In this document: piece after piece, positions 2,364 to 17,267 of the stretch
How positions within the stretch are numbered: position 1 is the first letter of the stretch
Layout: every line of letters begins with the position of its first letter
NCBI GenBank assembly: GCA_964385515.1
Contig: CAYLPD010000003.1
Coordinates: 1 to 50,756, forward strand
Direction: 5' to 3'
Length of the DNA: 50,756 bases
DNA from: an uncultured Bdellovibrionales bacterium
GTDB lineage: Bacteria; Patescibacteriota; Minisyncoccia; Moranbacterales; UBA1568
The notes under the pieces: model-generated
The model's database searches: none
The model's input: the letters and a program-made list of their open reading frames with translations, nothing else
Told to the model about the DNA's origin: nothing
Position numbers and translations under genes: made by a program

Positions 2364-2373
2364 GAGGGAACGG

Positions 2374-2874
2374 TTACAGGATCTGTTCCTCTGCTATCGG
2401 TTCCGGTTTCAGCCGAATGAGGATCTTCCGGTCTCCACCCGTTCCGACACTCTCTGTCATCACGCTCCCGTGACTTGCGAGGAGGTGATGAATCATCTTG
2501 CGCTCAAAAGACAACATCGGGCGAAGCATTACCGGGAGGCCGGATTCCTCAACCTCCTTCACTGCGGCGAGAGCCTCCCGCTCAAGAAAACCTCGTTTCT
2601 CTGCAAAATAACCATTCACATCAATGCTGAGCAGCCCATTCTTGGGCAGTTCTTCCCGCACCAAAAGTTTTACTAGGTGCAACAAAGCGGCAACATTGGC
2701 ACCGTGCTGACCAATCAGGAGATTTTGCCCTTCCTGCAGAGTAATTTCGCAGCGGTATTGCACCATATCATTCGCGCTCATTTCTTCTCCCGTCTTCACC
2801 TCTGCCTCGAAACCCATCCGTTTCAGCAGATCTTTGACGGTATCATTGAGATAGAGGCGAAACGACTGTTCCAT
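2374..2874 (-). CDS. jag: Jag/KhpB-type KH + R3H RNA-binding protein
   Basis: 166 aa, in the canonical position immediately downstream of yidC. It has a KH-like core and a C-terminal R3H-like region (ERKMIHHLL...). Confidence 0.75.
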   Translation of the reverse strand: MEQSFRLYLNDTVKDLLKRMGFEAEVKTGEEMSANDMVQYRCEITLQEGQNLLIGQHGANVAALLHLVKLLVREELPKNGLLSIDVNGYFAEKRGFLEREALAAVKEVEESGLPVMLRPMLSFERKMIHHLLASHGSVMTESVGTGGDRKILIRLKPEPIAEEQIL

Positions 2875-2893
2875 AGAGAGAGTGTGGGAGGGG

Positions 2894-3652: not shown

Positions 3653-3654
3653 AG

Positions 3655-4002
3655 TTATTTTTTTGCTTTATTAAGCCTTTCCACAAGCTGATACAGCTCA
3701 CCTTTCAGCCAAGGATAGGTCACGGGGGCTGAAAACGGCTTATGAAAGAGGACAACGATGTTAGTTGCCTTGGGGAGACGGGATGCCAACTCCCTCATTA
3801 TGGCACTTCCTTTGCGCTTGAGGAAATGCCGAGTAGTTGCACGAGGGAAAACCTTCTGTTTAAAGGCAAAACCAACTTTTGTCTCAATACTTGGCGCCGC
3901 ACGAAAAAAAATGCCAATTTCTCGGCTGAAAATGGCCTTTTTTGATTGAAAAACACTCTCAAAAGCTCCCTTCCCTCGCAAACGAAGGCGTTTAGGAAGC
4001 AT
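3655..4002 (-). CDS. rnpA: Ribonuclease P protein component
   Basis: 115-aa basic protein lying between rpmH and yidC (conserved order), with an RnpA-like 'KRLRLRGKGAFESVF' N-terminus. Confidence 0.85.
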   Translation of the reverse strand: MLPKRLRLRGKGAFESVFQSKKAIFSREIGIFFRAAPSIETKVGFAFKQKVFPRATTRHFLKRKGSAIMRELASRLPKATNIVVLFHKPFSAPVTYPWLKGELYQLVERLNKAKK

Positions 4003-4006
4003 AAGC

Positions 4007-4147
4007 CTAAACCGAAAGCTTTTTTCTTCCTTGACGACGACGGCGTGTTATCACGGCCTGTCCCCCTTTTTCGCTCATGCGCTTAAGAAAACCGTGACGA
4101 CGAGCTCGCCGACGCTTTTTTGGCTGATAGGTTCGTTTTGTTGCCAT
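4007..4147 (-). CDS. rpmH: 50S ribosomal protein L34
   Basis: Not in the ORF track because it is under 60 aa. Hand translation of the minus strand gives [46 protein letters not shown], a textbook L34. It is divergent from dnaA. Confidence 0.92.
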
Positions 4148-4283
4148 ACGGTACTGAGAAAATATGTGTAGTCCAATTTTATTTTAAATGAAGGAAAAAG
4201 TCAACTCCAGCAGCTGGGGTTGCTCTCGCTCTATTAAAGAGTGGAACTAAAATAAAATCACGGACTTTTTTGGTAAATACCAC

Positions 4284-4350
4284 TTATTCACAGACTTTCC
4301 ACACTTTATGCACTATTTTGCATCGATTCCATAGCTGAGACATGGTATAC
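4284..4350 (+). promoter_or_regulatory. DnaA-box-like sites plus dnaA promoter (-10)
   Basis: TTATTCACA (4284-4292) has one mismatch to TTATCCACA. Weaker sites follow: CTTTCCACA (4295-4303) and TTATGCACT. An extended -10 'TGgTATACT' ends at 4350, about 22 nt before the dnaA ATG. Confidence 0.5.
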
Positions 4351-4372
4351 TCAGGTTTGCTTGCTACAAATT

Positions 4373-5803
4373 ATGACCAACGAGGAGCTCTGGAAGGCGG
4401 CTTTGGGACAGATAGAACTCTCTATTTCAAAAGCCAACTTTATAACCTGGTTTAAGAATACTTCTATCCAATCCCATGAAAATGGACGTATTGTGATTGG
4501 TGTTCCCAATGGTTTTGCAAAGGAATGGCTAGAAAACAAGTACAATTTGTACATTATCAAGGCCTTGAAGAGCCTAGCTCCTGATGTACAGGATATAAAA
4601 TGTTCAATTCTCCCAAATAATGGGCAAAAAGGTGCTCCAGAAACATTTAAAAAATCCATGGATGGAGCTCGCCCATTCTCGGGCACTCAGAACGATAGTA
4701 CCATTCCAACCGGGTTTTCAAGAAAGCGGATCATTGAAAAGCCAGTTTTAACTGCGCCCAGCGGTGAAATATTCCAAAGCAACCTCAATACCCGTTATAC
4801 CTTCAACAATTTCATCGTCGCTGAAAACAATGAGCTTGCGCGTGCTGCCTGTTTTGCCATCTCTCAAAACCTTGGACACTTGTACAACCCACTCTTTATT
4901 TACGGGGGGGTAGGACTCGGGAAAACACACCTCCTCCAGGCCCTTGGTAATGAAATAGCAGAGAAACAGCCAGAAAAAAGGGTAAAATACATCACTTCTG
5001 AGCGGTTTACCAGCGAACTCGTTGAATCAATTAAAAGCCAGACCGTTGATCAATTTAAAGCTGAGTATGAACACATTGATCTCCTCATCATTGATGATGT
5101 GCAATTCCTTTCTGGCCGCGAAAAGACACAAAATGAGTTTTTTCATATATTTAACGCTCTCTATCAGCTCAATAAACAGATAGTCATCTCCAGTGACCGA
5201 ACACCAAAAGCCATCCCCACCCTAGAAGAACGCCTCCGGTCTCGATTTGAGGGTGGTATGATCGCAGATATTAGTCGACCAAGTCTTGAAACTCGAACAG
5301 CAATACTAGAAACAAAGGCTAAAGAAAAGGGTGTTGTCATAGATTCAGCCTCGATTCACTTTATTGCCGAACATATAAAAGAGAATGTTCGGGAGCTGGA
5401 AGGCGCGCTCGCTCGAGTCTGTGCCTATAGCGAATTCCAAAAAGTCCCTATTGGGTTATCGCTTGTACAAAAAGCGCTCTCTGATATGCTTATTCAAACG
5501 AAAAAGTCAGTTAAATTGGACGATATTGTCAAAATAGTGAGTGAGTTTTACGGTGTTTCAACCGAAGAAATGGTAAAGAAGGGGCGAAAGAAAGAAATTG
5601 CTCATCCGAGACAAGTTGCAATGTACCTCCTTCGAACCGAACTTGACACGCCATTTTCTACCATTGGTGATTTTTTTGGTGGACGAGACCATACTACCGT
5701 TCTCCATGCAGTCGAAAAGATTACAAAAAACCGAGAATCCACCCTCCGAATTCGAGAGGAGATAGCTTCCTTGAAAGAAAAACTTCAATCAACACCTGTA
5801 TAA
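4373..5803 (+). CDS. dnaA: Chromosomal replication initiator DnaA
   Basis: Walker A 'GGVGLGKTHLL', AAA+ core and a C-terminal DnaA-box-binding helix (HTTVLHA). The ORF opens at a TTG at 4361. The ATG at 4373 (MTNEELW...) is the likelier start. Confidence 0.95.
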   Translation: MTNEELWKAALGQIELSISKANFITWFKNTSIQSHENGRIVIGVPNGFAKEWLENKYNLYIIKALKSLAPDVQDIKCSILPNNGQKGAPETFKKSMDGARPFSGTQNDSTIPTGFSRKRIIEKPVLTAPSGEIFQSNLNTRYTFNNFIVAENNELARAACFAISQNLGHLYNPLFIYGGVGLGKTHLLQALGNEIAEKQPEKRVKYITSERFTSELVESIKSQTVDQFKAEYEHIDLLIIDDVQFLSGREKTQNEFFHIFNALYQLNKQIVISSDRTPKAIPTLEERLRSRFEGGMIADISRPSLETRTAILETKAKEKGVVIDSASIHFIAEHIKENVRELEGALARVCAYSEFQKVPIGLSLVQKALSDMLIQTKKSVKLDDIVKIVSEFYGVSTEEMVKKGRKKEIAHPRQVAMYLLRTELDTPFSTIGDFFGGRDHTTVLHAVEKITKNRESTLRIREEIASLKEKLQSTPV

Positions 5804-6014
5804 GTACTGAATAACTTTGTATTTTCGTTTATAACGGGGGTAAAAAACGTATTCTTATGTGGATAAATCAACAAAATGAGAAAATCCCTACAATTTCATC
5901 CACTATTTCTTAATTTATTTTTCGCTCTCCAAGCCGACTCTTCCCACTTTCCCACATATACACAACAGTAATAACAATAAATTTATATATAAACTCTTCT
6001 AAGAATTACTCCAT
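5804..6014. other. Candidate oriC core (dnaA-dnaN intergenic region)
   Basis: A perfect DnaA box TGTGGATAA (the reverse complement of TTATCCACA) lies at 5858-5866. Degenerate boxes lie at 5896-5904 (TCATCCACT) and 5948-5956 (TTTCCCACA). They are followed by a very AT-rich tract (about 5966-6010) suitable as an unwinding element. Confidence 0.6.
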
Positions 6015-7145
6015 ATGAAACTCTCATGCACTCAAGAAAATCTTCGGACAGCACTCTCAATTCTGGAAAGAATTGCTGGTAAACAAAGTTCGTTACCAAT
6101 TTTGAGTAATATATTACTTGAAACCGAAAAGGGACAATTGCATCTCTCTGCTACTAATCTCGAAATTGGTGTAATTACATCAATTGGAGCAAAAATAGAA
6201 GAAGATGGACGAGTAACTATCCCCGCCAAGCTTTTTATTAATTTTATTCAAAATCTAGCCCTTGATCAGGTGGTTAATATTGAACAGATTGGAACACAAA
6301 TTGTACTTGAAAGTGGTAATTATAAAGTGAAAATTAATGGTTTAGATGGAAAAGATTTCCCAATTATACCTAGACGTTCAAGTGGAGAGATATTTACACT
6401 TGAAGCAAATGGATTACGAAAAGGATTACAAAAGACTTTGTTTTGTGTATCGCTCAATCAAAGCCGGCCCGAACTTACAGGTGTTCTCTTTGGAATTACA
6501 GAGGGTGTTGTTTTTCTCGCGGCAACTGATAGTTTTCGACTTGCCGAATGGAAAATGACAGGGAAGGTGCAGGGTGATATTAGTGCTCTCGAATCGAGAC
6601 AATCATCAATTATTATCCCATCATCTACTCTGCAGGAAGTTCTTCGAGTAATATCTCAGGGTGCAGATGATGTAAATATTGCATTAGAGGAAAATCAAAT
6701 ATTTTTTGAGATCGGGAGTACGCGAATTGTTTCTCGTTTGATTAATGGAAAATACCCAGAATATCAAGCGATTATACCAAAGCAATTCTCAACTGAAATT
6801 AGCTTAAATCAAGCTGAATTTCAACGAGCGTTGAAAATTGCAACCTCATTTTCATCATATAGCGCAAGCGAGGTAGTCTTTCAATTTAATACGGAGGATG
6901 GGTGGCTTGAGATCAAGTCTCAATCCCAGGGAATTGGAGAGCAAGTTGCAAAAATAGCGTATGAGGGCGTGTTGTCAGCGCCGCTCCAGATTGTCTTTAA
7001 TCCACGCTATATTCTCGAGGGGACGGCTGCTCTCGCGGGAACTGAAATACGGCTTGCTCTAAATACATCATCAACGCCGGTAAAGATATTTTCTGAGGCA
7101 GAACCCGACGAGTACATATACATCGTGATGCCGATCAGAAAATAA
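6015..7145 (+). CDS. dnaN: DNA polymerase III beta sliding clamp
   Basis: 376 aa immediately after dnaA, with a clamp-like three-domain length and the N-terminus 'MKLSCTQENL...L..ILLE'. Confidence 0.93.
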   Translation: MKLSCTQENLRTALSILERIAGKQSSLPILSNILLETEKGQLHLSATNLEIGVITSIGAKIEEDGRVTIPAKLFINFIQNLALDQVVNIEQIGTQIVLESGNYKVKINGLDGKDFPIIPRRSSGEIFTLEANGLRKGLQKTLFCVSLNQSRPELTGVLFGITEGVVFLAATDSFRLAEWKMTGKVQGDISALESRQSSIIIPSSTLQEVLRVISQGADDVNIALEENQIFFEIGSTRIVSRLINGKYPEYQAIIPKQFSTEISLNQAEFQRALKIATSFSSYSASEVVFQFNTEDGWLEIKSQSQGIGEQVAKIAYEGVLSAPLQIVFNPRYILEGTAALAGTEIRLALNTSSTPVKIFSEAEPDEYIYIVMPIRK

Positions 7146-7199
7146 CGAAAACAAGCGTGGCGAGTAGATAGTTTTGACTCGGTAAAGAGTAGCTGTTCT

Positions 7200-7496
7200 A
7201 TGCGTTCTCTGAAGGAGTGTATTGGTAAGCGAAATGGTAGAACGACGGGGACACCTCTTGATGATAAGACGGTATTTTTTATGTTTCGGAAAATAATTAA
7301 AGAGGAATATGGAGCACGTGGTGTTGCTGAGTTGGAACCAATAGCGTTTCTTGAGGGAGTGCTTTCAGTGAAATCTCATAACCCGCTCTATTCAGGCGAA
7401 TTATGGATTCATCGGGAACAGATTATTACGCGAATGAACTCAGCCCTTGAACAGGAGGCTATTCAAGAGCTTCGGCTTGTCCGGTATGTTCCCTAA
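7200..7496 (+). CDS. DUF721/DciA-like small protein
   Basis: 98 aa downstream of dnaN. The pattern resembles DUF721 proteins that commonly follow dnaN. This is a recollection-based call. Confidence 0.5.
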   Translation: MRSLKECIGKRNGRTTGTPLDDKTVFFMFRKIIKEEYGARGVAELEPIAFLEGVLSVKSHNPLYSGELWIHREQIITRMNSALEQEAIQELRLVRYVP

Positions 7497-10105
7497 TACG
7501 CGACAGAAACGCTCCCACTCGCGCTTGTGGTATTTCCGTTTTTATCCTCAAGCGTAACCTTGATATCAAGCGTCGAATTGTTTTGGCTTTCTGGAACTGA
7601 GTAGGTCATCGAAAATGGTTTTTCATTTCGTTCCCCAATCTTATTTCCCCCGACTAAAAAAGTAACTTTAGAGACCCCGTATGGCGCCTCGACACCCGCA
7701 CTCAAGGTGAGAGTATTTGAAGTGATAGAGTTTGGAACATTTAGGCTGATTGAGGGTTGATATTTTTTGAAGTCATCTGCACTACATTCTTTCTTGGGTG
7801 GTTCCTCGGCAATGACATCTTTCTGTTTCTTGTACCATTCCTTCACGGATTTTTCCCAGTTTTTATACTGACTGTCATCTTCTGGATCATCAGGTTTTTC
7901 GCCCCTTGGGTTGGAGCGCTTTACGTAGTGAAGGATATCGTGGGGTTCTACAAAATCTTTTTTCTTTGCTTTTCCATCAGGACAATATTTATTCGCGATA
8001 CAGAATTTGTCTTCGTTGGGAATCTCACAGACCTTTAAATCTTCTTTCGCCTCTAATGTGCCGTCAAGCATTGGTTTATCAAGATCCTCCTTCTCATACT
8101 TTGGAAAGCGTTCCGTCGCGTAGTTGACAAGCGCTTTGTCGAGGAAAGCACGCCAGATGGGAGCTGCGACATTCACACCGTCAGCTCCTGTAACCATGGG
8201 ACTATTGTCATTGTTTCCAGCCCAAACGCCGACAGCGAGAGAGGGTGTGAATCCAATTGTCCAGCCGTCACGAAATTCATTGGTAGTTCCAGTTTTAGCG
8301 GCGACATCACGTTGGTCAAAACGGAGGGGGCTATTTTCTCCAAACACCGGTGCACGAAAACTATTGGTTGACATGATATGTTCAAGCATGGTCACGTATT
8401 TTTCCTCTACAACGCGTTCGCCGGGACCACCCGCGTACTCTTCTAAAGTTGTTCCCTTGGAATCCTCAATCTTCAGGATAGCTGCTAGAGGATGTTTGAC
8501 TCCGCCTGTTGCTAGGGTCGAGAACGCGTGGACATGGTCGAGAAGGTGGACTTCGCCGCCTCCCAAAACGAGTGAGAGTCCAAGGCGATCTGGATTGTCG
8601 AGGCCGACGATGCCAAGGCGCTTGGCCGTATCTATAGCCTCTTTCACACCAACGAGGTAGAGTGTTTTTACCGCGGGGATATTGAGAGATTGGGCAAGTG
8701 ACTCAGCTAGAGATAGCGGCCCACGAAACTTTCCATCGTAATTTTGTGGTTTGTAGCTTTTCCCATCTGCTGTATCAAAGTTAGTTTCGACATCGTATAT
8801 GAGTGTCTCGGGGATGTAGCCTTTGGTAAAGGCGGTTAAATAAACATAGGGCTTAAAAGAGGATCCTGGCTGTCGAGGTGCTGTTGTCACATTGAAGTTG
8901 GCTTCAAAAACACAGGTCTTCCCACTGATACAGTTGGCTGGTTCTGAGGCGCCGAAATAGTCTTTTGAGCCAACCATAGAGAGCAGCTGCCCCGTCTTTG
9001 GATCTATCGCGATGAGGGCTGCATTGGCAGCTTTCCAGCGTTTGTTTTTTTCGGCCCCCGTTCGGACTGCCTCTTCAGCAATCTGCTGTTTATCCCAGTC
9101 GAGAGTGGTTATCACACGATAGCCGCCTTCCTCGACAGCTCGATCACCATATTTTTCTTGAAGATAGTCCTTGATGTACATGACGAAATGCGGTGCCGCA
9201 AAAATATTTTTCTGAGGCATTATCTTTCCAAGCGTATCTGCGTTTATTGCCTCCTCGGCCTGCTCATCGGTGATGTAGCCAAGGCTTGCCATTTGCTTGA
9301 GTGCGTATGTTTGTCGCCCGGAGAGTGCTTCGGTATGAGAACCATAGGGAGAATAGAATGTTGTCGCCTGAGGAAGCGCTGCTAGGAGAGCCGCTTCATC
9401 AAGACCAAGTTCGCGGGCTGGCTTGCCGAAGTATGTTTGAGCAGCTGATTCGATACCGTATGCATTTGACCCATATGGAATTTCGTTCAGATACATCTCG
9501 AGAATCTCGTCCTTTGAATACTTTGTCTCGAGTTCGAGCGCGAGGATAACCTCTTTTATTTTTCGAGCAACCGATTTCTCATTTGTGAGGAGGGTGTTCT
9601 TCACCAATTGCTGAGTGATAGTGGAGCCACCCTGGGATTTGTCGAGGGTAACGATATCCCTCAAAACAGCACGCAGGATGGAAGAGAGTTTGATACCGAA
9701 GTGATGGTAGAAATCCTGATCTTCGAGGGAGATGGTGGCATATTTCACTACCTCAGGCATTTCAGAGAAGGGTATAACGGTGCGTTTTTCCTCGCCGTGC
9801 ACTTCGTACAAGAGGTGGGTGCCAGTACGATCATAAATTTTGGTTGATTCTGCCACAAAACGATCGCTGACATTTCCGGGACTGGGTAAATCCTTTGCAA
9901 TGTAGAGAAAAAGCCCAATGAGTGCAACGAGACCGAAACTACCTGCAACCGCTAACCCAAGCCAAATTTTCTTCCAGGGCCAGGGTTGTTTCGGTTTTGG
10001 GTTCATGCCGACTATTTCAATCGCTGGACGGCGACGAAAGCTCCGGTGGGAAAACAGTGATTTAGGCCTAGAATAAAGCATAAAGTGACTATATGTATGC
10101 CTCAT
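7493..10105 (-). CDS. Class A penicillin-binding protein (glycosyltransferase + transpeptidase, PBP1A-like)
   Basis: It has an N-terminal TM helix, GT51 motifs (EDQDFYHHFG, GGSTITQQL, RKIKE) and the transpeptidase motif SSFKP. There is also a roughly 150-aa C-terminal extension ending in an Ig-like beta-rich segment. The start is uncertain (10105, or the internal ATG at 10006). Confidence 0.9.
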   Translation of the reverse strand: MRHTYSHFMLYSRPKSLFSHRSFRRRPAIEIVGMNPKPKQPWPWKKIWLGLAVAGSFGLVALIGLFLYIAKDLPSPGNVSDRFVAESTKIYDRTGTHLLYEVHGEEKRTVIPFSEMPEVVKYATISLEDQDFYHHFGIKLSSILRAVLRDIVTLDKSQGGSTITQQLVKNTLLTNEKSVARKIKEVILALELETKYSKDEILEMYLNEIPYGSNAYGIESAAQTYFGKPARELGLDEAALLAALPQATTFYSPYGSHTEALSGRQTYALKQMASLGYITDEQAEEAINADTLGKIMPQKNIFAAPHFVMYIKDYLQEKYGDRAVEEGGYRVITTLDWDKQQIAEEAVRTGAEKNKRWKAANAALIAIDPKTGQLLSMVGSKDYFGASEPANCISGKTCVFEANFNVTTAPRQPGSSFKPYVYLTAFTKGYIPETLIYDVETNFDTADGKSYKPQNYDGKFRGPLSLAESLAQSLNIPAVKTLYLVGVKEAIDTAKRLGIVGLDNPDRLGLSLVLGGGEVHLLDHVHAFSTLATGGVKHPLAAILKIEDSKGTTLEEYAGGPGERVVEEKYVTMLEHIMSTNSFRAPVFGENSPLRFDQRDVAAKTGTTNEFRDGWTIGFTPSLAVGVWAGNNDNSPMVTGADGVNVAAPIWRAFLDKALVNYATERFPKYEKEDLDKPMLDGTLEAKEDLKVCEIPNEDKFCIANKYCPDGKAKKKDFVEPHDILHYVKRSNPRGEKPDDPEDDSQYKNWEKSVKEWYKKQKDVIAEEPPKKECSADDFKKYQPSISLNVPNSITSNTLTLSAGVEAPYGVSKVTFLVGGNKIGERNEKPFSMTYSVPESQNNSTLDIKVTLEDKNGNTTSASGSVSVAY

Positions 10106-10142
10106 TTATACCACGATATACCGCTCTCTCCAACAGTAGGGA

Positions 10143-11117
10143 TTAAGTTTGTAAACCAAAGTATTGACGCAGGATCTGTTCTGCAGGATCAAAATACGGA
10201 CGTTTGATCGACCCCTGGTGGAGCGAAAGATCTGGCCCCCCGTTTATCTCGATGATCACGCCGCCAGTTTTGATCAGTGGCAGGTTGATATCTTCGGTGA
10301 TGACATCAATGCCGGCAATATTCAGGTGAATAGCTCTTGTGGCCGCGAGAAAGAGTTCTACATTGATGGGGTGAATACGATCCGTCACGTCTACCGCATG
10401 CCCACCGTGTGAAATCGGCGCCGCACGGTAGAGGTTGATAGTCTCACCGGGCTCTGGGATCATTGAGAACGCGAGACCTTGTTCATTGAGGATACGGACG
10501 AGTTCGGGCTTTATTGGGATAGGCACCGTATTGCTCCCGGGGATAATCGAGTTATTGTGCTGATTGATGAGCAAGAGAATGGTATCACTCCCATTCCCCG
10601 TGAGCGTGGGAGGAATAAATTCAGCCGCCGCTATAATCTGATTTTCAAAAATAAGAATCCGGTACTCTTTACCTCGAATCTTTTTCTCAATGACAACATA
10701 TTGGAATTCTTTCTGAATCGTCTTGAAAGCGTTCCTTGCTTCTTCGATGGTTTGGATAGACGCGTGTACCCCTCTCCCGAGAGTGGAACCGAGTGGTTTC
10801 ATCAAGACATCACCCTGATGTTTGTTGTAAAACGCCTCAAGTTCTGGTAGAGAACTTACGATGAGTTGTTCAGTCGTGGGAATCCCATGGTGTCGAAGAA
10901 TCTCGTTTGTAGTCGCTTTGTCAGCTGCGATCTTCATCCCGATAAATGAAGTGGAAAGGATGGTCGCGCCGAGGGTAAAGAGTTCTCTCTGTCCATCAGA
11001 AATCCGATAAACGGAGCGTCGTTCTGGCGAAGATCCTTTTATCGAGGCGTAGGGTTTGAGACTGAGGCCGAGTCGTTTGGCAGCCTGAGCAAACCCGAAT
11101 TTTTTTGAGTGAGACAT
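10143..11117 (-). CDS. Stand-alone cyanophycin-synthetase-like ATP-grasp (G-domain-like) ligase
   Basis: 324 aa, counted from the ATG at 11117, which is preceded by AGGAG. The track ORF extends to 11228. The order of motifs matches the CphA ATP-grasp region: 'LMKPLGSTLGRGV', 'VIEKKIRGKEYRILIF', 'PPTLTGNGSDTI', 'ISHGGHAVDVTDRIHP', 'AGIDVITEDI', 'IIEINGGPD'. No Mur-ligase-like M domain is attached. Confidence 0.7.
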   Translation of the reverse strand: MSHSKKFGFAQAAKRLGLSLKPYASIKGSSPERRSVYRISDGQRELFTLGATILSTSFIGMKIAADKATTNEILRHHGIPTTEQLIVSSLPELEAFYNKHQGDVLMKPLGSTLGRGVHASIQTIEEARNAFKTIQKEFQYVVIEKKIRGKEYRILIFENQIIAAAEFIPPTLTGNGSDTILLLINQHNNSIIPGSNTVPIPIKPELVRILNEQGLAFSMIPEPGETINLYRAAPISHGGHAVDVTDRIHPINVELFLAATRAIHLNIAGIDVITEDINLPLIKTGGVIIEINGGPDLSLHQGSIKRPYFDPAEQILRQYFGLQT

Positions 11118-11140
11118 AGTTTGGCTCCTGACTAAGGCTG

Positions 11141-11162
11141 AAAAAAGCGCCACACTGGGCGC
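11141..11162 (-). terminator. Intrinsic terminator/attenuator hairpin between the DUF1704 gene and the CphA-like gene
   Basis: On the minus strand the sequence reads GCGCC-cagtgt-GGCGC followed by TTTTTT. It lies about 24 nt upstream of the 11117 start codon. Confidence 0.55.
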
Positions 11163-11254
11163 AAGAGAAAAAGAGCTTTTGACTTTAACGCCGGACGGGA
11201 AAGAGCAACAGCTAATGAGTTGTACCACAGAAACAATAAAGAGTGAAGACTAGA

Positions 11255-12640
11255 CTATTCCTTTTGGAGTGATGCAAGATCGGTGTCAGTAATGCCAAGC
11301 TCATCCAACACCCAGAGATGCCGCGGATTGCTCGGATCGTATTTCCCGATATTCCAGCGTTGCATCTCGGGCTCTTTCCGATGGAGCGTTTCCCAGACAG
11401 CGATATTGCCTTCGCGATAGATGATGTCCTTGGTGAAACAGGCCCCGGGAGTCTTGCAATCGGTCCCGCGAAAGGTGCGGACTGCACGGCCCCAGGCAGT
11501 GTTCGCTGCCTTCTTTTCTGCTTCGGGAGCATCTATTCCGCGCGCGAGGTTTTTGATGAAGTAGTAACGGAACAGGAGATCATAGGTCCCACGGAAATCC
11601 CGGGGATGCCCGTCGAGCCCTGACGCGAGGCTAATCGCGAAGTGTCCGTCAAAGCCCGAGTAGTCGTCAGCTTCGCCCGCGAGCGCCTGTTCCCGGAGCG
11701 TTGCGATGCCTTCTTCGCCACCTTCGTAACGATCAAGTCCGAGGCCGAGCAGGCGGAGTCTGGCCCGCTCGCCATTGAGCCGTCTTGCAGTGTGTGTGCC
11801 AATCTCATGAGCGATCAGACCTTTGAGTTCGACGGTCGGCATTTTCCGGTCCGGAGGAACTTGGACCGCTTTTCTCTCTTGGTTCACGCTGATCCCGGCC
11901 CGTTTCGGATCGATGACCGCGACCCAGCCATCGGCCGATAAGGACTGAAGTGCGGATTCAAACGATGCCCGGATCTCTTCATCAGTCAGTTTTTCAGGAG
12001 CGTCAGGGATATCCAGTATGTCGCCGAGATCACGCTCAGTTTGGCTCTTTACGGCAGGGAGCATCGATTTGTCCGGTCCGCTGATTGCCGAGGCGCCACT
12101 CACGTCGGGGAGATCATTGATGAGGTGGGAGATCTCCTGCTGAATGAGGGGACTCGGGTTTTGATCAGCGATCTGCTTGAGTTCCTGCCGAACTTGCCCC
12201 AGAGTGTATTCAAAGATTTCTTTTGAGGGTTTTCCGTAGATGAATTCTGAGTAGCGCCTGAATCGGCGCATATTGCCAGTCGCCGCCGCGAGGAGCAGGC
12301 GGTTCTCGGCGATCTTCTCGTTGAGTCGCCAGCGGTAGACGTTTTTTACCACTTCATTCTTCTCACTGGCGAGAATCTTTTCTTTCAGGTCGAGTAATTC
12401 GCCATCTTTGGCGAGGAGTGCTCCTTCTTCAAGTCGCGGATAGTCGAGATCGGGATTTTCCTTTCCGTCGGAAAGAAAGGCTTCTTTTTCTTTGGCGCGG
12501 GCAGTGCTATCGCCATCGAGATACTCGTATGCCTGAAAAGCCCCAATTTCTTCAAAACGGGGATACCACCTTCTATCGAGTGCCGACAGTTTGGTAGCGG
12601 ATTCTTTTCTCGGTTTTAGCTTGAGTGGTTGTTCGAACAT
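11255..12640 (-). CDS. DUF1704-family (MATCAP-like) HExxH metallopeptidase
   Basis: 461 aa. It carries 'AHEIGTHTARRLNG' (HExxH, nt 11792-11809) and, about 30 residues later, 'GGEEGIATLREQ' (a QEGLA-like Glu motif, nt 11702-11716). This is the layout I recall for DUF1704 'QEGLA motif' proteins. Confidence 0.65.
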   Translation of the reverse strand: MFEQPLKLKPRKESATKLSALDRRWYPRFEEIGAFQAYEYLDGDSTARAKEKEAFLSDGKENPDLDYPRLEEGALLAKDGELLDLKEKILASEKNEVVKNVYRWRLNEKIAENRLLLAAATGNMRRFRRYSEFIYGKPSKEIFEYTLGQVRQELKQIADQNPSPLIQQEISHLINDLPDVSGASAISGPDKSMLPAVKSQTERDLGDILDIPDAPEKLTDEEIRASFESALQSLSADGWVAVIDPKRAGISVNQERKAVQVPPDRKMPTVELKGLIAHEIGTHTARRLNGERARLRLLGLGLDRYEGGEEGIATLREQALAGEADDYSGFDGHFAISLASGLDGHPRDFRGTYDLLFRYYFIKNLARGIDAPEAEKKAANTAWGRAVRTFRGTDCKTPGACFTKDIIYREGNIAVWETLHRKEPEMQRWNIGKYDPSNPRHLWVLDELGITDTDLASLQKE

Positions 12641-13286
12641 CTCGGACTGAATCAGTAAGATCAGTATAGCGTATCAACTGGAAAGGGCGGATGAGTTTCT
12701 GAAAAGCTCCGCTTCGGAGAAAGGTGAGCTCTCCTTCGCGCTCCTGGTTGTAGGGATAGGTGCAGCGTTTGTCAAAATAGCCGGGATGAGTGACGAGCTC
12801 AGTGACGAGGAACGAACGCGAAGCGAGGAGTCGTTCTATGAGCACAGGGATTCGCTTTGGATGCCAGGAGACAAAGTGGTTTGGAGTGACTATGCCACTG
12901 CACAGTAAATGGGCGCGGTCAGTCGGGAGCCGTGACCGGATGGGAAGACCATAGCGCCGCGCTGCTCGGATGACCCGGTCGATATTGTCTGGTGTGACAT
13001 GCTTGTGCTGGTGTCCATCGAGGTAGGCGGGGAGTCTCCCAAAGCGTTTTTTGAATCGCTTAATTTGCGAAATGATCTCCCGGTAGGAAGATGAGCTTTC
13101 GAGTTCGAGGTGGAGACCGAGAGCAATATCGAGCGCGAGGAGTTCGGTTTTTCGGACATATTTCCGCTTGATCATGACGGAAATCCCGGTAATGATTCCT
13201 GCGCGTGCTACTTCAAGCACGCCTTGGTTGAACCGTGGGGACATCCCGTAGTCATCAGCGGTGATGATGAGTTCAGGACGAGACAT
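12573..13286 (-). CDS. YdjC/ChbG-family (carbohydrate) deacetylase
   Basis: 237 aa from the ATG at 13286, which is 1 nt after the upstream stop codon. The track ORF extends to 13493. The N-terminal 'LIITADDYGMS' metal-binding signature and 'LDGHQHKH' are typical of YdjC-like proteins. Confidence 0.75.
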   Translation of the reverse strand: MSRPELIITADDYGMSPRFNQGVLEVARAGIITGISVMIKRKYVRKTELLALDIALGLHLELESSSSYREIISQIKRFKKRFGRLPAYLDGHQHKHVTPDNIDRVIRAARRYGLPIRSRLPTDRAHLLCSGIVTPNHFVSWHPKRIPVLIERLLASRSFLVTELVTHPGYFDKRCTYPYNQEREGELTFLRSGAFQKLIRPFQLIRYTDLTDSVRDVRTTTQAKTEKRIRYQTVGTR

Positions 13287-13287: not shown

Positions 13288-15180
13288 TTATTTCTTTTGG
13301 ACGGCGAACTTGAGCGCGCCGATGATCGCCTGGTAAAGTCTCCCAATGTGTGGTCGCTCTGATTCGTCCGGGTAGAGCCCCGGCATAGTATTGAGTTCGA
13401 CAATCCACGGTCGTCCGGTTGGATCAAACATGAGATCGATTGTATAAATCTTTGGCGAGAATTTTTCATAGTGAGACTGAACGGCATGAACAATAGGCCA
13501 GACCGAGTTGGGTATATCCTCTTCCGCGATCATTGTTTGTTTCCCGCCCTGGGCGACATTGGCCAAATAACCTCCGGCCCTTGGCGTGCGGTAATACGCA
13601 TATACTAGCGACTCATTGCAGTAGATGATTCGGAGATCATGGAGCCCTTTCATTACTCCTGGTATACCATTGCTTGAGTCGATGAATTCTTGGACGAGTA
13701 TTGGAAAAGCTACTCGTTCGAGTATTTCGGCCTTCTCAGCGATAAGAATTCCCTCGCCGCTGTTGCCGCGTTCCGGTTTAGCGACAACCAATGTATCCGG
13801 CAGTTGAGCGAGGATATTGATCAGATCCTCTCGAGAAGTGGCTCGGAAATACGGCTTGGCGAATTCTTTGAAGGCGCGACTAACTTGGAGTTTGCTGCCG
13901 GCGTGCAGGGAAAACGCAGGGTGATTGATCATCGGGTAGTGTTTGAGTAGGGCATCCTTGGCGGGTGTTGTCTCGGCGTTTACTGCCGCCTTGTCATAGA
14001 TAACATCAGGAGTAATAGAGTGGGCAAGTGTCCAGTTGTCTCCATCCCAATGCCAGGCCGCCCGAAACATACCGGTTGCCGCATCGTACCAGCGAGTCGA
14101 GCTTCGGTAGAGTGCTACACCTTCGCGGGCTGCGAGCTTAACAAAGTCGGTATATGCTTCACAATAGATGTCTTTTTCGAATGGCACTACCCCGTCATTT
14201 TCTTGGGGTGTAGAGATGATGACGGCAGTAATGGGATCAAGGAAGCGGCGCAGCTCTTCGAGCAATCGAGTATAGACGCGGCGCATTGTGGCATCTTCTT
14301 CGGGTGGAAAGAACATTCCAGGCATCGTGTTAAATTCGATAATCCAGGGGCGACCGGTTTCATCGAACATAACATCGATTGTATAGGTCTTCTGAGGAAA
14401 GCGCGCAAAGAGTGTCCGCGTGTCTTCGATGATGGGGGTAAGTACCTCAGGAAGTTCATCCGTTGGAATGATCCTCATACTGCCGCCCTGTGCGATATTG
14501 GCAAGGAACGACCCGTCCTTTGGTGTTCGGATATACGTGTAGACGAGTTCATCACCGATGAAGACCATACGGAAATCATGGTAGGTGTCAGTGATCCCGG
14601 GTATTCCATGGGAACTGTCGATAAACTCCTGGGTGATAACGGGAAATGTGAGAGTGAGAGATTTCGCTTCTTCTTTCGAAACAATATGAACACCCTGTCC
14701 GCCGCTTCCTACTATAGGTTTTATGACGAGCCGATCGCTGCTAAAGGTCTCTAGAAATTCAGCAAATTCTTTTGAGTCATCAATTTTTCGGTAGGGCTTG
14801 AAGTATTGTGGGAGTTGTCGACTGGTCTCGTACTTGTTGCTAGCAAATAAGGTGAAGGCGGGATCATCCATGAAACGGTAACGGGAAATGATGAGCGCGC
14901 GCGTTTTATCGAGAGCGGAACGTCCGTTGGTCTTATCATAAATAAGATCTGGCCTGACCGGTCCCGAGAGCTGCCACTTCCCCTCGACAAATTCCCAGGA
15001 GTCACGAAAAATATCGCGTTTGGCATCATACCAATCAATCGGTGCTCGGCAGAGATGGAGTCCGTGTGTTTCTCCAAGTGAGTAAAGCATTTCATAGCAG
15101 CGCTGATACTTGGGATCAGAAAACGGAATGTCTGGCCCCGCATTATGCGAAGTGTAGAGAATGAGAACGGTTTTTTTCAT
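13288..15180 (-). CDS. Internally duplicated (tandem) ATP-grasp amidoligase, RimK/YheCD/TTL-like
   Basis: 630 aa made of two homologous halves of about 315 aa each. Both halves carry 'KP..GS/NSG.G', 'QEFIDSS.GIPG', 'AN(I/V)AQGG' and '(I/V)E(F/L)NTMPG'. Confidence 0.75.
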   Translation of the reverse strand: MKKTVLILYTSHNAGPDIPFSDPKYQRCYEMLYSLGETHGLHLCRAPIDWYDAKRDIFRDSWEFVEGKWQLSGPVRPDLIYDKTNGRSALDKTRALIISRYRFMDDPAFTLFASNKYETSRQLPQYFKPYRKIDDSKEFAEFLETFSSDRLVIKPIVGSGGQGVHIVSKEEAKSLTLTFPVITQEFIDSSHGIPGITDTYHDFRMVFIGDELVYTYIRTPKDGSFLANIAQGGSMRIIPTDELPEVLTPIIEDTRTLFARFPQKTYTIDVMFDETGRPWIIEFNTMPGMFFPPEEDATMRRVYTRLLEELRRFLDPITAVIISTPQENDGVVPFEKDIYCEAYTDFVKLAAREGVALYRSSTRWYDAATGMFRAAWHWDGDNWTLAHSITPDVIYDKAAVNAETTPAKDALLKHYPMINHPAFSLHAGSKLQVSRAFKEFAKPYFRATSREDLINILAQLPDTLVVAKPERGNSGEGILIAEKAEILERVAFPILVQEFIDSSNGIPGVMKGLHDLRIIYCNESLVYAYYRTPRAGGYLANVAQGGKQTMIAEEDIPNSVWPIVHAVQSHYEKFSPKIYTIDLMFDPTGRPWIVELNTMPGLYPDESERPHIGRLYQAIIGALKFAVQKK

Positions 15181-15182: not shown

Positions 15183-16604
15183 CTATTTCTTACTGACGTC
15201 GACAAGAAACATCCCGAGGTTACGGCGGCCGATGATGGCTCGATACTGGAGTGACGAACGGTCCACCACTGTCGGACTAGCAGAGATCTCTTGACCATCC
15301 ATGACGAGCGTTAGTCCGATTTTCGGTCGCATGCTGACACCGTTTGATGCGTAAACGAAAACAATGTCTTTCAGGTCGGGTATATCCTGGCGCAAATGAG
15401 TTCTTTTTAGAGATTCTCTGAGCTTTTCTCCTGTTTCCTGATTTTCCGGAAATACGGGATTGATTGTATCAAAATACTGGAGTGCTTCCCCAAATCCGAG
15501 TTCCTCGGCAAGCGCTCGATCGATCGCCGAGGAATCCGCTCCCGTGTCGATTTTCGCCTCGATCTCGATTTCCTTGCCGTCTTTGCCAATAAACTTTACT
15601 TTTTCGACAGAGCCGATGACGCGTTTTCCCGAGAGTCCCTCAATGTTTTCTTCAATCTCGCCACCAAACAGATTCATACCAACACGGACGCCGTGATCGA
15701 CACTTTTAATTTTTACACCCTTTACCCGCTCGAGGCGTTCTTTCAAGCCGGCCATATTTGCAAGTTGGATCGAGAGGCCGGGCCGAGCGTTCAGCTCGAG
15801 GATAACCGGGCCAGCGTCACGGTCGATGGCGATATCAGCACCGAGAAATCCGAGCCCAGACACTTCCTGGGCCTTCACGGCCATCGTGAGGATTTCTTTC
15901 CAGCGGGGGATCTTGATACCGGATAACAGGAGACGGGTCTTCGGGGCATATTCGATGATGCGTCCTTTGCCGACGATCGCGCTTGTCGTCGTGCCATTCG
16001 CCATGTCGATACCGACGCCGATTGCGCCCTGATGCAGGTTGGCTTTGCCGCCCGAATCCTGGGTCGGGAGACGCAACATTGCCATCACCGGGACACGATT
16101 GAAGACGATGACACGAATATCAGGAATCCCTTTCCATGTGTAGGGTTTGAAGAGTTTAAGGAGTTTGAGTCGCTCTTCAAAAAAGGCAATATCAGGTTTA
16201 TTGGAAAGCGAAAATGTACCGTCAAGGATATTCTGAACATGGTTTTTCAGGTCAGCAATGGTGATTAAGCTTCCGTCAGCCTTCACCCAAGCATCGTCCC
16301 GACCTTTCTTTTTTGCATACACCACCACTATCCCTTCACCGCCGAATCCGCGATTCGGTTTCAGGGCAAAACTGCTGGGGAGCATTTGCCAATCGAAATT
16401 TTCAAGCGATTCGGAAGAGCTGATTTTTGCAACGAGCTTTGAGACGGGAAGCCCATTTTTTTTCAACGCAACTTTACATTTTAACTTTTGATCCGCAAAG
16501 CGCCGACCTTGGGCATGATTATACCGCCGTACATAGTCGAGGTTGCGGGCATTCATCCCGAGGAGTGTGCGGCTGTGCGCGTACCAGGAAAGCATAGAGG
16601 GCAA
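15183..16604 (-). CDS. Alpha-L-glutamate-ligase-like (RimK-related) ATP-grasp fused to a retropepsin-like aspartic protease domain
   Basis: 473 aa. The N-terminus has 'LGMNARNLDYV', 'LKPNRGFGGEGI', 'ANLHQGA' and 'ILELNARPG'. The C-terminus (residues about 325-473) has 'KIDTGADSS' (DTGA at nt 15537-15548) and 'AIIGRRNL...FLVD', as in the RimB/'ATP-dependent zinc protease' retropepsin-like family. Confidence 0.8.
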   Translation of the reverse strand: MPSMLSWYAHSRTLLGMNARNLDYVRRYNHAQGRRFADQKLKCKVALKKNGLPVSKLVAKISSSESLENFDWQMLPSSFALKPNRGFGGEGIVVVYAKKKGRDDAWVKADGSLITIADLKNHVQNILDGTFSLSNKPDIAFFEERLKLLKLFKPYTWKGIPDIRVIVFNRVPVMAMLRLPTQDSGGKANLHQGAIGVGIDMANGTTTSAIVGKGRIIEYAPKTRLLLSGIKIPRWKEILTMAVKAQEVSGLGFLGADIAIDRDAGPVILELNARPGLSIQLANMAGLKERLERVKGVKIKSVDHGVRVGMNLFGGEIEENIEGLSGKRVIGSVEKVKFIGKDGKEIEIEAKIDTGADSSAIDRALAEELGFGEALQYFDTINPVFPENQETGEKLRESLKRTHLRQDIPDLKDIVFVYASNGVSMRPKIGLTLVMDGQEISASPTVVDRSSLQYRAIIGRRNLGMFLVDVSKK

Positions 16605-16607: not shown

Positions 16608-17267
16608 CTACGGTTTTTGCTTCAAGATATGACGGAAGCGGAAAAGTTCCACGAGCCGCAACCCTGACCACTTGCCAAGACCGATATTGATGAAGAAAGT
16701 TGCAAAAATTGCCCAGGGATACTGGAGGAAGAAATCACGGAGTGCTGGCCACCCGATGGCGAAATAACCGATCATGGAGATGATGAGAGTCTCACCTGCC
16801 AGGATGAGAGCTGTCTTTGCACCTTGTTCTATCTGGGTCGCAATAAACTTTTCAGCCAGAGTGACGAGGATGAGAAGGGGGAAGATATCGACCGCAGCCA
16901 AGCCAGTTCGATGGAGTGTTGCTCCGAGCGCGAGGATGCTGAGTACGGTGAGCGATATAATAGAAAGTGTAATCGCGACGCGGGGCAGATACAGGAGCCG
17001 GAAAGGGCGCAGGAGGTAACGTGAGAGAATGCCCATTCCAATGACGGCAAAGAAGATAGCAATTCCATATTTTAATCCCTTTTCACCAAAGGCGAGGAAT
17101 GCAAAGGTGATGATGGATGGTGTGTAAATTCCAAAGGCCTTGATTCCGACGATCTGCCTGAAAAACGCAACGAGCGTCGCGATAACCGGCAGCATGAGCA
17201 AGAGATACACAGTCTCAACCGGTACGCCGGCAGCAACAAAAAACTGAATAATGGGATGATAGTTCAT
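16608..17267 (-). CDS. 7TM membrane protein (7TM_transglut-like, lacking the transglutaminase module)
   Basis: 219-aa polytopic ORF. 'RQIVGIKAFGIYTPSII' resembles the conserved first-loop motif of the 7TM proteins that partner RimK-like ligases. There is a 3-nt gap to the ligase-protease gene. Confidence 0.6.
   Translation of the reverse strand: MNYHPIIQFFVAAGVPVETVYLLLMLPVIATLVAFFRQIVGIKAFGIYTPSIITFAFLAFGEKGLKYGIAIFFAVIGMGILSRYLLRPFRLLYLPRVAITLSIISLTVLSILALGATLHRTGLAAVDIFPLLILVTLAEKFIATQIEQGAKTALILAGETLIISMIGYFAIGWPALRDFFLQYPWAIFATFFINIGLGKWSGLRLVELFRFRHILKQKP

What the first reader, a model, noticed from the sequence alone, without database searches (positions are those of the whole stretch)
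13288..15180. Single 630-aa protein built from two tandem, diverged ATP-grasp units
Aligning residues about 1-318 with about 319-630 by eye gives colinear matches along the whole length. Examples:
- WYDAKRDIFRDSWEF / WYDAATGMFRAAWHW
- PDLIYDK / PDVIYDK
- DPAFTLFASNKYETS / HPAFSLHAGSKLQVS
- FPVITQEFIDSSHGIPG / FPILVQEFIDSSNGIPG
- FLANIAQGG / YLANVAQGG
- YTIDVMFDETGRPWIIEFNTMPG / YTIDLMFDPTGRPWIVELNTMPG
Both halves keep apparently intact nucleotide- and Mg-binding motifs. That suggests two active sites that could add two different residues, or act as initiation and elongation modules. This is reminiscent of two-site logic in peptide-forming ligases. Tandem fusion of this YheCD/TTL-like type is unusual.
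Basis: seen in the sequence. Interest (0 to 1): 0.62.

Follow-up and report, generated by a model that had tools for sequence, protein, structure and literature searches.

The report
Two peptide-ligase units fused in one protein
One gene of a tiny-genome (Moranbacteria, CPR) bacterium really does encode two complete, apparently active ATP-grasp ligase units joined head to tail; this is a rare, genus-restricted fusion of two neighbouring paralogous genes in a cell-envelope-linked ligase operon, and what it makes is still unknown.

Summary
The ORF lies on the minus strand (13288-15180, 630 aa). Residues 1-316 and 317-630 align at 35% identity over 307 residues with one gap (E = 3e-76).

- **Each half is a full enzyme.** Each half is a complete three-domain ATP-grasp amidoligase of the RimK/LysX/GshB/Ddl structural class (AlphaFold pLDDT 94.8, pTM 0.81).
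- **Both sites look intact.** Every ATP- and Mg-binding motif is invariant in both halves across 27 orthologues. Seventeen positions are fixed differently in the two halves.
- **The fusion is real.** Four independent metagenome assemblies carry it without indels.
- **It is rare.** It is found only in the window's own genus (11 of 15 genomes). Of the 150 best relatives, all are single units except one representative of this same fused family and one independent tandem.
- **Related states exist.** Relatives often lie as 2-3 adjacent paralogous genes 0-23 nt apart. One lineage nested inside the fused clade has split the gene again.
- **Operon.** 7TM_transglut, RloC-like ATP-grasp fused to a retropepsin-like domain, the tandem ligase, YdjC, MATCAP-like peptidase (absent from one fused locus), PBP1A.

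The most likely reading is a covalently linked hetero-pair of specialised ligases doing two ligation steps on one envelope-related product. That reading is inferred, not shown. Moderate interest.

The parts
13288..15180 (-). Whole ORF for the 630-aa tandem ATP-grasp protein (stop codon at 13288-13290)
   Evidence: There are 27 full-length orthologues of 630-648 aa. Independent assemblies carry it. No TM segment is present.
14233..15180 (-). N unit (aa 1-316), a complete three-domain ATP-grasp ligase
   Evidence: Self-alignment. Pfam RimK, YheCD and ATPgrasp_ST all above cutoff. Foldseek matches to LysX/ArgX, RimK and GshB.
14689..14727 (-). N unit ATP-binding Lys154 and Gly-rich loop (VIKPIVGSGGQGV)
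   Evidence: Coordinates. K154, S159, G160 and G161 are invariant. The segment aligns with the RimK 'VVKLVEGTQGIGV' segment.
14317..14385 (-). N unit Mg-binding block YTIDVMFDETGRPWIIEFNTMPG (D269, E282, N284)
   Evidence: D269, E282 and N284 are invariant across the 27 orthologues. D269 and E282 are also invariant, and N284 nearly so, across 147 family members.
14224..14247 (-). Junction and linker (RFLDPITA). It is about 3 residues here and up to about 19 in basal orthologues, where it is not conserved.
   Evidence: The model shows helix 293-314 leading directly into strand 317-323.
13291..14232 (-). C unit (aa 317-630), a second complete ATP-grasp ligase
   Evidence: The stand-alone orthologue P0032 is 57% identical.
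13747..13785 (-). C unit ATP-binding Lys468 and Gly-rich loop (VAKPERGNSGEGI). The loop is fixed as GNSG, against GSGG in the N unit.
13378..13446 (-). C unit Mg-binding block YTIDLMFDPTGRPWIVELNTMPG (D582, E595, N597)
15183..16604 (-). Upstream gene: RloC-like ATPgrasp_ST ligase fused to a retropepsin (RimB)-like domain. Its stop codon lies 2 nt before the tandem gene's ATG.
   Evidence: It is conserved next to the tandem gene in L013, L015 and L023.
16608..17267 (-). 7TM_transglut membrane protein, first gene of the module
   Evidence: Its C-terminus is basic and variable, not an acidic tail.
12573..13286 (-). YdjC-family deacetylase. Its ATG lies 1 nt after the tandem gene's stop codon.
   Evidence: It follows the fused gene in all five fused loci.
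11255..12640 (-). MATCAP/DUF1704-like metallopeptidase
   Evidence: It is present in L013 and L023 and absent in L015.
10143..11228 (-). Additional stand-alone ATP-grasp protein with weak RimK and GARS_A matches. It is lineage-specific here.
   Evidence: It is absent from L013, L015 and L023 and present in distant G238.
7493..10105 (-). Class A penicillin-binding protein (PBP1A), the conserved downstream neighbour

Best explanation
The gene encodes a soluble cytoplasmic protein made of two complete ATP-grasp amidoligase units of the RimK/LysX/GshB class.

Shown:
- The two units are paralogues at 35% identity.
- Both keep every residue needed to bind ATP and Mg and to form an acyl-phosphate.
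- The fusion is old within one Moranbacteria genus and is under purifying selection in both halves.
- At least one lineage has split it again.

Inferred:
- The protein arose when two adjacent paralogous genes, which in relatives lie 0-23 nt apart and often in frame, lost the intervening stop codon. The long, unconserved linkers of basal orthologues would be the translated spacer.
- The two units act as a fixed 1:1 hetero-pair. They carry out two different ATP-dependent amide-bond ligations on one substrate, either two different residues or initiation followed by extension.
- That substrate is made by the Rlo-like operon and relates to the cell envelope. The tightly coupled YdjC deacetylase may expose an amino-sugar amine as acceptor.
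For: **Repeat and fold**
- Internal repeat at E = 3e-76.
- Model with pLDDT 94.8 and pTM 0.81 and colinear elements in both halves.
- Each half matches whole single-chain LysX/ArgX, RimK, GshB and Ddl structures at TM 0.66-0.75 normalised to the target.

**Conservation**
- K116/K430, K154/K468, the Gly loops, QEF, HDxR, NxxQGG, D269/D582, E282/E595 and N284/N597 are invariant in 27 orthologues.
- Mean pairwise identity among orthologues is 70% for the N unit and 63% for the C unit.
- Seventeen positions are fixed differently in the two halves. They cluster in the first N-domain helix, the Gly loop, the residue after the GG motif and the loop after NTMPG.

**Evolution**
- The N and C subtrees are congruent, so the fusion predates the divergence of the orthologues.
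- The split orthologue L018 has three stops and a frame change between its two genes. Its genes are 65% and 57% identical to the N and C units. It nests inside the fused clade with support 99/95 and 98/89.
- Adjacent paralogue pairs or triples occur in G167, L024, L026, G364, G456 and G524.
- The linker runs from 3 to about 19 residues and is not conserved.

**Operon and context**
- The operon is conserved with 1-2 nt gene spacings.
- YdjC follows all five fused genes.
- A sibling species has a GT4 glycosyltransferase in the same slot.
- Other family members sit beside a Mur ligase with an LCP transferase, or beside Wzy_C.
- Pseudomonas rlo mutants have cell-shape, osmotic and beta-lactam phenotypes (PMC12239564).
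Against: - There is no biochemical data for any member of this family.
- No substrate candidate was found. The 7TM partner has no conserved acidic tail.
- The tree does not resolve whether the N and C units are each other's closest relatives or descend from older paralogues.
- Sixty shared conserved positions and similar substrate-motif sequences (LANIAQGG and LANVAQGG) would also fit two sites doing the same chemistry.
- The split L018 operon and the G167 operon lack YdjC, so the sugar-amine idea cannot hold for the whole family.
- Inter-site geometry could not be measured.
Confidence: 0.55

Rival explanations
1. Pseudo-homodimer. ATP-grasp ligases of this class work as dimers or tetramers. 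On this reading the fusion merely hard-wires a dimer, both sites catalyse the same reaction, and the sequence differences are neutral or structural.
For: The nearest structural relatives (RimK, LysX/ArgX, GshB, Ddl) are oligomeric enzymes (established knowledge). A pTM of 0.81 for a two-module chain suggests a fixed mutual arrangement. Sixty positions, including the substrate-side NxxQGG motif, are conserved identically in both halves. Plant-type Ddl is a precedent for fusing two like ligase units (PMC9954125).
Against: The halves are only 35% identical. Seventeen positions have stayed fixed differently throughout the genus. Conservation is asymmetric, with 19 N-only positions against 5 C-only. 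Distinct paralogue pairs recur as adjacent genes in other lineages. That recurrence is hard to explain if a single gene product could homodimerise.
Confidence: 0.27
2. One catalytic unit plus one regulatory or scaffolding unit. One half has become a non-catalytic substrate-binding or allosteric module.
For: Conservation is asymmetric. The N unit is more conserved, at 70% against 63% pairwise identity, with more unit-specific invariant sites. Duplicated enzyme domains often subfunctionalise this way (general knowledge).
Against: All canonical ATP- and Mg-binding residues are invariant in both halves in 27 orthologues spanning 55-91% identity. Each half alone passes the RimK domain threshold. 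Both halves are modelled at pLDDT above 90.
Confidence: 0.08
3. Artefact. On this reading two adjacent genes were joined by an assembly or sequencing error.
For: Relatives do carry adjacent in-frame gene pairs separated by a single stop codon.
Against: Twenty-seven protein clusters and 11 genomes of the genus carry the fused frame. Four assemblies from four independent studies cover the junction without any indel.
Confidence: 0.01

Closest known systems
RimK (poly-alpha-L-glutamate ligase of ribosomal protein S6) and LysX/ArgX (amino-group carrier protein ligases)
   Same: They share the three-domain ATP-grasp fold and are the best fold matches (TM 0.69-0.75 normalised to the target). RimK is the only sequence-level PDB match (E about 1e-5). 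They share the ATP-Lys, Gly loop, DxR, NxxxGG and D/E/N Mg motifs. They have protease partners of the RimB/retropepsin type in the same operon (PMC12239564).
   Different: Those enzymes are single-unit chains of about 280-300 aa. The tandem protein scores far below the NCBIfam RimK-family and LysX cutoffs (71.7 against 143.4, and 39.3 against 275.6). No RpsF-like or LysW-like acidic-tailed substrate is evident.
Carbamoyl-phosphate synthetase large subunit (CarB)
   Same: It is the classic case of an internal duplication giving two ATP-grasp units with two active sites that perform successive steps in one polypeptide (established knowledge).
   Different: It belongs to a different ATP-grasp clade and is about 1070 aa with extra domains. 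The overall arrangement is not superposable (TMq 0.33, rmsd 26 Å). Its chemistry is carboxyphosphate and carbamate phosphorylation, not amide ligation.
Plant-type / Patescibacterial tandem D-Ala-D-Ala ligase (fusion of two Ddl genes)
   Same: It is a head-to-tail fusion of two complete amidoligase-type ATP-grasp units with a cell-wall connection (PMC9954125; earlier scan notes).
   Different: It is a different family. Here the Dala_Dala_lig_C match covers only the roughly 22-residue Mg motif. Its distribution is large and ancient, whereas this fusion is confined to one genus.
RloABC system of Pseudomonas (retropepsin RloA, 7TM inactive-transglutaminase RloB, ATP-grasp RloC)
   Same: The two genes immediately upstream are a 7TM_transglut protein and an ATPgrasp_ST ligase carrying a RimB/RloA-like domain. 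There is an envelope link through the conserved PBP1A neighbour.
   Different: The tandem ligase itself has no counterpart in the described rlo operon. It is an add-on found in Patescibacteria. The Rlo substrates are also unknown.
TTL/TTLL ligases with MATCAP carboxypeptidase (eukaryotic tubulin tail code); TTLL initiases versus elongases
   Same: An ATP-grasp ligase lies beside a MATCAP-family peptidase. The idea of separate initiating and elongating ligase sites is shared.
   Different: The TTL Pfam match is restricted to about 40 residues around the Mg motif. MATCAP is missing from some fused operons, such as L015. No tubulin-like acidic tail was found.

Membership tests
ATP-grasp superfamily (amidoligase type) | Three-domain fold with the nucleotide grasped between the central and C-terminal domains | tested here: met
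   AlphaFold model with pLDDT 94.8. Foldseek probability 1.00 to LysX/ArgX, RimK, GshB and Ddl, each covering one half.
ATP-grasp superfamily (amidoligase type) | ATP-binding lysines, Gly-rich loop and the Asp/Glu/Asn Mg-binding triad, present in BOTH halves | tested here: met
   K116/K430, K154/K468, GSGG/GNSG, D269/D582, E282/E595 and N284/N597 are invariant in 27 orthologues. They align to the RimK motifs.
ATP-grasp superfamily (amidoligase type) | ATP-dependent carboxylate-amine ligase activity | not testable with these tools
   This needs an enzyme assay.
RimK family alpha-L-glutamate ligases (TIGR00768 / PF08443) | Score above the curated family cutoffs | tested here: inconclusive
   The Pfam RimK domain cutoff is met (74.7 bits for the whole protein; 41.8 and 36.0 bits per half, against 21). 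The NCBIfam subfamily model TIGR00768 is not met (71.7 against 143.4). The equivalog models for RimK, MptN, CofF and LysX are far below cutoff.
RimK family alpha-L-glutamate ligases (TIGR00768 / PF08443) | An acidic C-terminal protein substrate (RpsF-like), or poly-Glu synthesis | tested here: not met
   No operon protein has a conserved acidic C-terminus. Product chemistry was not tested.
YheC/D-like ATP-grasp (PF14398) | Full-length match to the family model above cutoff | tested here: inconclusive
   The N half scores 42.5 bits against a cutoff of 26.8 but covers only model positions 141-250 of 255. The C half scores 22.5 bits, below cutoff.
Tubulin-tyrosine ligase family (PF03133) | Match along the TTL domain | tested here: not met
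   Only model positions of about 226-268 of 292, the Mg-motif stretch, are matched in either half.
CarB-type tandem ATP-grasp | Same mutual arrangement of the two ATP-grasp units and the same family | tested here: not met
   1bxr and 1a9x align at TMq 0.32-0.33 and rmsd 26 Å. No CPSase family hit above cutoff was found.
Tandem (plant-type) D-Ala-D-Ala ligase | Ddl family membership of both units | tested here: not met
   TIGR01205 scores 30 bits against a cutoff of 245.65. The Dala_Dala_lig_C match covers 22 residues only.
Rlo-like (7TM_transglut + ATPgrasp_ST + retropepsin) gene module, as genomic context | Adjacent 7TM_transglut and ATPgrasp_ST genes with a RimB/RloA-like protease domain | tested here: met
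   PF14402 at 2e-28. PF14397 at 4.6e-68 with a weak C-terminal PF05618 match. The same pair stands upstream in L013, L015, L018, L019 and L023. The inactive-transglutaminase domain of RloB is absent here, leaving the 7TM part only.

The most novel reading that the evidence does not exclude
The fused enzyme is a two-site 'dipeptide-unit' synthetase that works on a sugar, not a protein. On this reading YdjC, in some species together with a GT4 glycosyltransferase, exposes an amino-sugar amine on an envelope glycan or its lipid- or nucleotide-linked precursor. One unit then attaches the first amino acid and the other extends it. The RimB-like and MATCAP-like peptidases trim the product. This would give Patescibacteria a Mur-ligase-independent way of putting peptides onto cell-envelope glycans.
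Probability: 0.12. Interest if true: 0.75.

Novelty: new variant of a known kind. Interest (0 to 1): 0.4.

Why it matters
Tandem ATP-grasp enzymes are few (CarB, plant-type Ddl). Where they are understood, the two sites do successive chemistry.

This locus offers a natural three-state series for one enzyme pair:
- adjacent paralogous genes;
- a fused gene with a shrinking linker;
- a secondarily split gene.

That makes it a clean system for asking what fusion buys a two-ligase pathway. It also marks the variable 'ligase slot' of an Rlo-like operon. The products of the Pseudomonas counterpart are unknown, although that operon affects cell shape, osmotic tolerance and beta-lactam sensitivity. 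Identifying the tandem enzyme's product could therefore help to find the substrate class of the whole system in Patescibacteria.

The fusion itself is a modest architectural variation confined to one genus, and no function is demonstrated.

Tried and rejected
- **Single-sequence AlphaFold.** It gave an unusable model (pLDDT 37) and was replaced by the alignment-based model.
- **Inter-site geometry.** Model coordinates are not exposed in the Python box, so I could not check whether the two sites share a cleft.
- **7TM tail as substrate.** An earlier scan note suggested that the 7TM partner carries a conserved -Glu-Glu tail that serves as ligase substrate. In this operon family the C-termini are basic and variable (…ILKQKP, …ILRTER, …IFDQN), so I rejected the idea here.
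- **Possible extra fusions.** The genome search reported open frames of 625-656 aa in G364, G353, G456 and G524. The ORF listing shows separate 302-324-aa family genes in G364, G456 and G524, and in G353's multi-gene cluster. In G364, G456 and G524 they are separated by in-frame stop codons. These are gene arrays, not fusions.
- **N/C sisterhood.** The tree of halves plus single-unit relatives did not resolve whether the N and C units are sisters. They fall in a polytomy, so 'internal duplication' against 'fusion of older paralogues' stays open.
- **Literature.** Searches for tandem, double or fused ATP-grasp or RimK proteins found only CarB and engineered microviridin-ligase fusions.
- **Sequence search of the PDB with the C half alone.** It gave nothing significant.
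- **Promoter and terminator scan.** Counts did not exceed the shuffled expectation, so the scan did not define the operon ends.
Full report
**1. Observation**

The ORF at 13288-15180 is on the minus strand and encodes 630 residues.

BLASTP of residues 1-318 against 319-630 gives one colinear alignment: 307 columns, one gap, 35% identity, 54% positives, 224 bits, E = 3e-76. The internal repeat is therefore real and far beyond chance.

Pfam finds two stretches of RimK, ATPgrasp_ST, YheCD, GSH-S_ATP and TTL in the whole protein. Each half alone passes the RimK domain cutoff, with 41.8 and 36.0 bits against 21. No NCBIfam model reaches its cutoff. RimK family scores 71.7 against 143.4, MptN 76 against 350 and LysX 39 against 276. 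The protein therefore belongs to no named equivalog.

**2. The fused frame is not an artefact**

- Twenty-seven protein clusters of 630-648 aa, at 55-91% identity, carry the same two-unit architecture.
- Within the window's own genus, nine species genomes have it complete and two have it broken across contig ends, out of 15.
- Contigs from four independent activated-sludge and wastewater studies cover the whole gene and its junction with 1-12 substitutions and no indel or joint.
- The genome is a 1.06-Mb, 97%-complete Patescibacteria (CPR) assembly. Source names on related proteins point to Candidatus Moranbacteria.

**3. Anatomy**

A single-sequence fold failed. With a 147-sequence alignment the model has mean pLDDT 94.8 and pTM 0.81.

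The secondary-structure elements of residues 1-314 repeat in the same order in residues 317-629. Helix 293-314 runs almost directly into strand 317-323.

Foldseek against the PDB gives LysX/ArgX (5k2m, 3vpb), RimK (4iwx, 5zct, 7qys), GshB (1gsa) and Ddl as best matches. Each covers one half, with TM 0.66-0.75 normalised to the target. Each half is therefore a whole three-domain amidoligase, not only an ATP-grasp core. CarB, the classic double ATP-grasp protein, aligns poorly (TMq 0.33, rmsd 26 Å).

By sequence, the only PDB relatives are RimK proteins at E about 1e-5. That alignment equates:
- K154 with the RimK ATP lysine;
- QEF(184-186) with QEY;
- D202/R204 with DIR;
- N228…G232-G233 with SN…GG;
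- D269, E282 and N284 with the Mg ligands.

The protein has no hydrophobic segment (maximum 19-residue Kyte-Doolittle mean 1.34), so it is cytoplasmic.

**4. Are both sites intact?**

In the 27 orthologues the following pairs are invariant or nearly so:
- K116/K430 and K154/K468;
- the Gly loops;
- Q184-E185-F186 and Q497-E498-F499;
- H201-D202-x-R204 and H514-D515-x-R517;
- R218/R531 and N228/N541;
- G232-G233 and G545-G546;
- D269/D582, E282/E595 and N284/N597.

The residues invariant across 147 family members (K116, K154, R204, D269, E282) all have their counterparts in the C half.

Mean pairwise identity among orthologues is 70% for the N unit and 63% for the C unit, so both are under purifying selection.

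Sixty aligned positions are conserved identically in both halves. Seventeen are fixed differently, 19 are conserved only in the N unit and 5 only in the C unit.

The differently fixed positions cluster in four places:
- the first helix of the N-terminal domain (C28/A342, E30/T344, L32/F346, C44/Y358);
- the Gly loop (GSGG against GNSG);
- the residue after the GG motif (M235/Q548);
- the loop after NTMPG (MFFPPEE against LYPDESERP).

This pattern fits two working sites that have specialised. It does not fit one decaying copy. That reading is an inference from sequence, and no assay exists.

**5. How unusual is the fusion, and how did it arise?**

A scan of 1.84 billion cluster representatives finds 870 relatives. 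Of the best 150, all but two are single units of about 300-330 aa. The exceptions are the family's own representative P0027 and P0035 (648 aa). Both halves of P0035 fall together in a distant clade, so it is an independent tandem.

Both the N-unit and the C-unit clades are strongly supported, and their internal topologies agree. The fusion therefore predates the divergence of the 27 orthologues. Whether N and C are each other's closest relatives is unresolved, because they sit in a polytomy with single-unit proteins.

Locus L018 has the same operon but two separate genes of 316 and 326 aa. They are 65% and 57% identical to the N and C units. Twenty-three nucleotides holding three stop codons and a frame change separate them.

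In a paralogue-rooted tree L018 nests inside the fused clade in both subtrees (99/95 and 98/89), with fused P0027 and P0021-P0025 branching earlier. L018 is therefore most simply a secondary fission. This shows that each unit can exist as its own polypeptide.

Outside the genus, relatives carry one copy or arrays of two to three adjacent paralogues:
- G167, 5 nt apart;
- L024, 1 nt apart;
- L026;
- G364, with TAG followed directly by ATG, in frame;
- G456 and G524, in frame and 3-6 nt apart.

Such arrays are one point mutation away from a fusion.

The linker between the units is about 3 residues in the window's clade. It is up to about 19 unconserved Pro/Lys/Ser/Gln-rich residues in the deepest-branching orthologues. 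A translated former spacer that was later trimmed would look like this.

**6. Context**

All genes lie on the minus strand, in this order:
1. RuvC;
2. 7TM_transglut (PF14402);
3. ATPgrasp_ST (PF14397, 4.6e-68) with a C-terminal retropepsin/RimB-like domain;
4. the tandem ligase;
5. YdjC;
6. a MATCAP/DUF1704-like peptidase;
7. an extra ATP-grasp protein;
8. PBP1A.

The upstream stop codon lies 2 nt before the tandem ATG. The YdjC ATG lies 1 nt after the tandem stop codon.

The order 7TM, RloC/RimB, tandem, YdjC, (MATCAP), PBP1A, DciA, DnaN, DnaA recurs in L013, L015 and L023. YdjC follows the fused gene in all five fused loci. It is absent from the split L018, the paired G167 and the single-unit L017.

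In sibling species G189 the slot holds one distant family member plus a GT4 glycosyltransferase before YdjC. Other family members sit with three RimK-like genes, a Mur-type ligase and an LCP transferase (L024). P0035 sits beside Wzy_C and a CDP-alcohol phosphatidyltransferase.

The first two genes correspond to RloB (7TM part only) and to RloC plus RloA of the Pseudomonas rlo operon. Mutants of that operon have cell-shape, hypo-osmotic and beta-lactam phenotypes, its protease cleaves poly-glutamate, and its substrates are unknown (PMC12239564).

The context is therefore consistently cell-envelope and glycan related, but it names no substrate.

**7. Mechanism proposed**

Shown:
- two complete ATP-grasp amidoligase units are present;
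- both have intact catalytic motifs;
- they are covalently linked;
- the gene is co-oriented and tightly spaced with YdjC and an Rlo-like pair.

Inferred:
- the units form a fixed 1:1 hetero-pair;
- they perform two different ATP-dependent ligations (acyl-phosphate formation followed by amine attack, as in RimK, LysX, GshB and Ddl) on one growing product;
- the acceptor may be an amino-sugar amine exposed by YdjC.

The main rival is a hard-wired pseudo-homodimer doing one reaction at two sites. A pseudoenzyme half is unlikely, and an artefact is excluded.

**8. Comparison and novelty**

[quoted passage not shown] No report of a tandem RimK/LysX-class ligase was found.

This is a new architectural variant of a known enzyme kind, restricted to one CPR genus, with one independent case elsewhere. 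Its value lies in two things. The first is the natural series of pair, fusion and fission. The second is that it marks a variable ligase slot in an uncharacterised envelope system.

Interest is moderate (0.4).

Noticed in passing
L027 (G364:C7) 1056-2932, minus strand: Two family ATP-grasp genes (307 and 316 aa) lie in the same reading frame. Only a TAG stop followed directly by ATG separates them, so they are one substitution away from a fused tandem gene.
   Followed up: partly
L020 (G189, same genus) 8219-10858: In a sibling species the slot between RloC/RimB and YdjC holds a distant single-unit family member (318 aa) plus a GT4 glycosyltransferase (341 aa) in place of the tandem ligase. 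This hints at a sugar-linked substrate.
   Followed up: partly
L024 (NCBI GCA_964344485.1 contig) 2540-9736: A cluster holds three RimK-like ATP-grasp genes, a stand-alone Mur-type ligase (Mur_ligase_M and Mur_ligase_C), two adjacent members of this family and an LytR/CpsA/Psr transferase. It looks like a multi-ligase envelope-peptide system. G353 (L028) has a cluster of similar gene sizes that I did not annotate.
   Followed up: no
window 10143-11228 (-): The extra stand-alone ATP-grasp gene between MATCAP and PBP1A is absent from the orthologous operons L013, L015 and L023. A homologue at 29% identity sits in the related operon of distant G238 (L021), so the set of accessory ligases is shuffled between lineages.
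   Followed up: partly
window 12573-12640 (-): The YdjC ORF's 3' end overlaps the annotated ATG of the MATCAP-like ORF by 68 nt in another frame. In L013 the two genes overlap by only 4 nt.
   Followed up: no
L022 (JGI 3300064042 contig) 4956-9947: The independent 648-aa tandem P0035 lies next to a Wzy_C (O-antigen ligase-like) protein and a CDP-alcohol phosphatidyltransferase, not next to an Rlo-like pair.
   Followed up: no
G456:C44 and G524:C4 (L029 3781-5727; L030 4370-7207): the genome search reported open frames of 627-653 aa here. The ORF listing shows two and three separate 311-324-aa genes separated by in-frame stop codons. The 'open_frame_aa' value should not be read as evidence of a fusion.
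   Followed up: yes
window 16608-17267 (-) and orthologues: The 7TM_transglut protein here is only about 219 aa, the 7TM part alone without the periplasmic inactive-transglutaminase domain of Pseudomonas RloB. Its C-terminus is basic (…RFRHILKQKP).
   Followed up: partly
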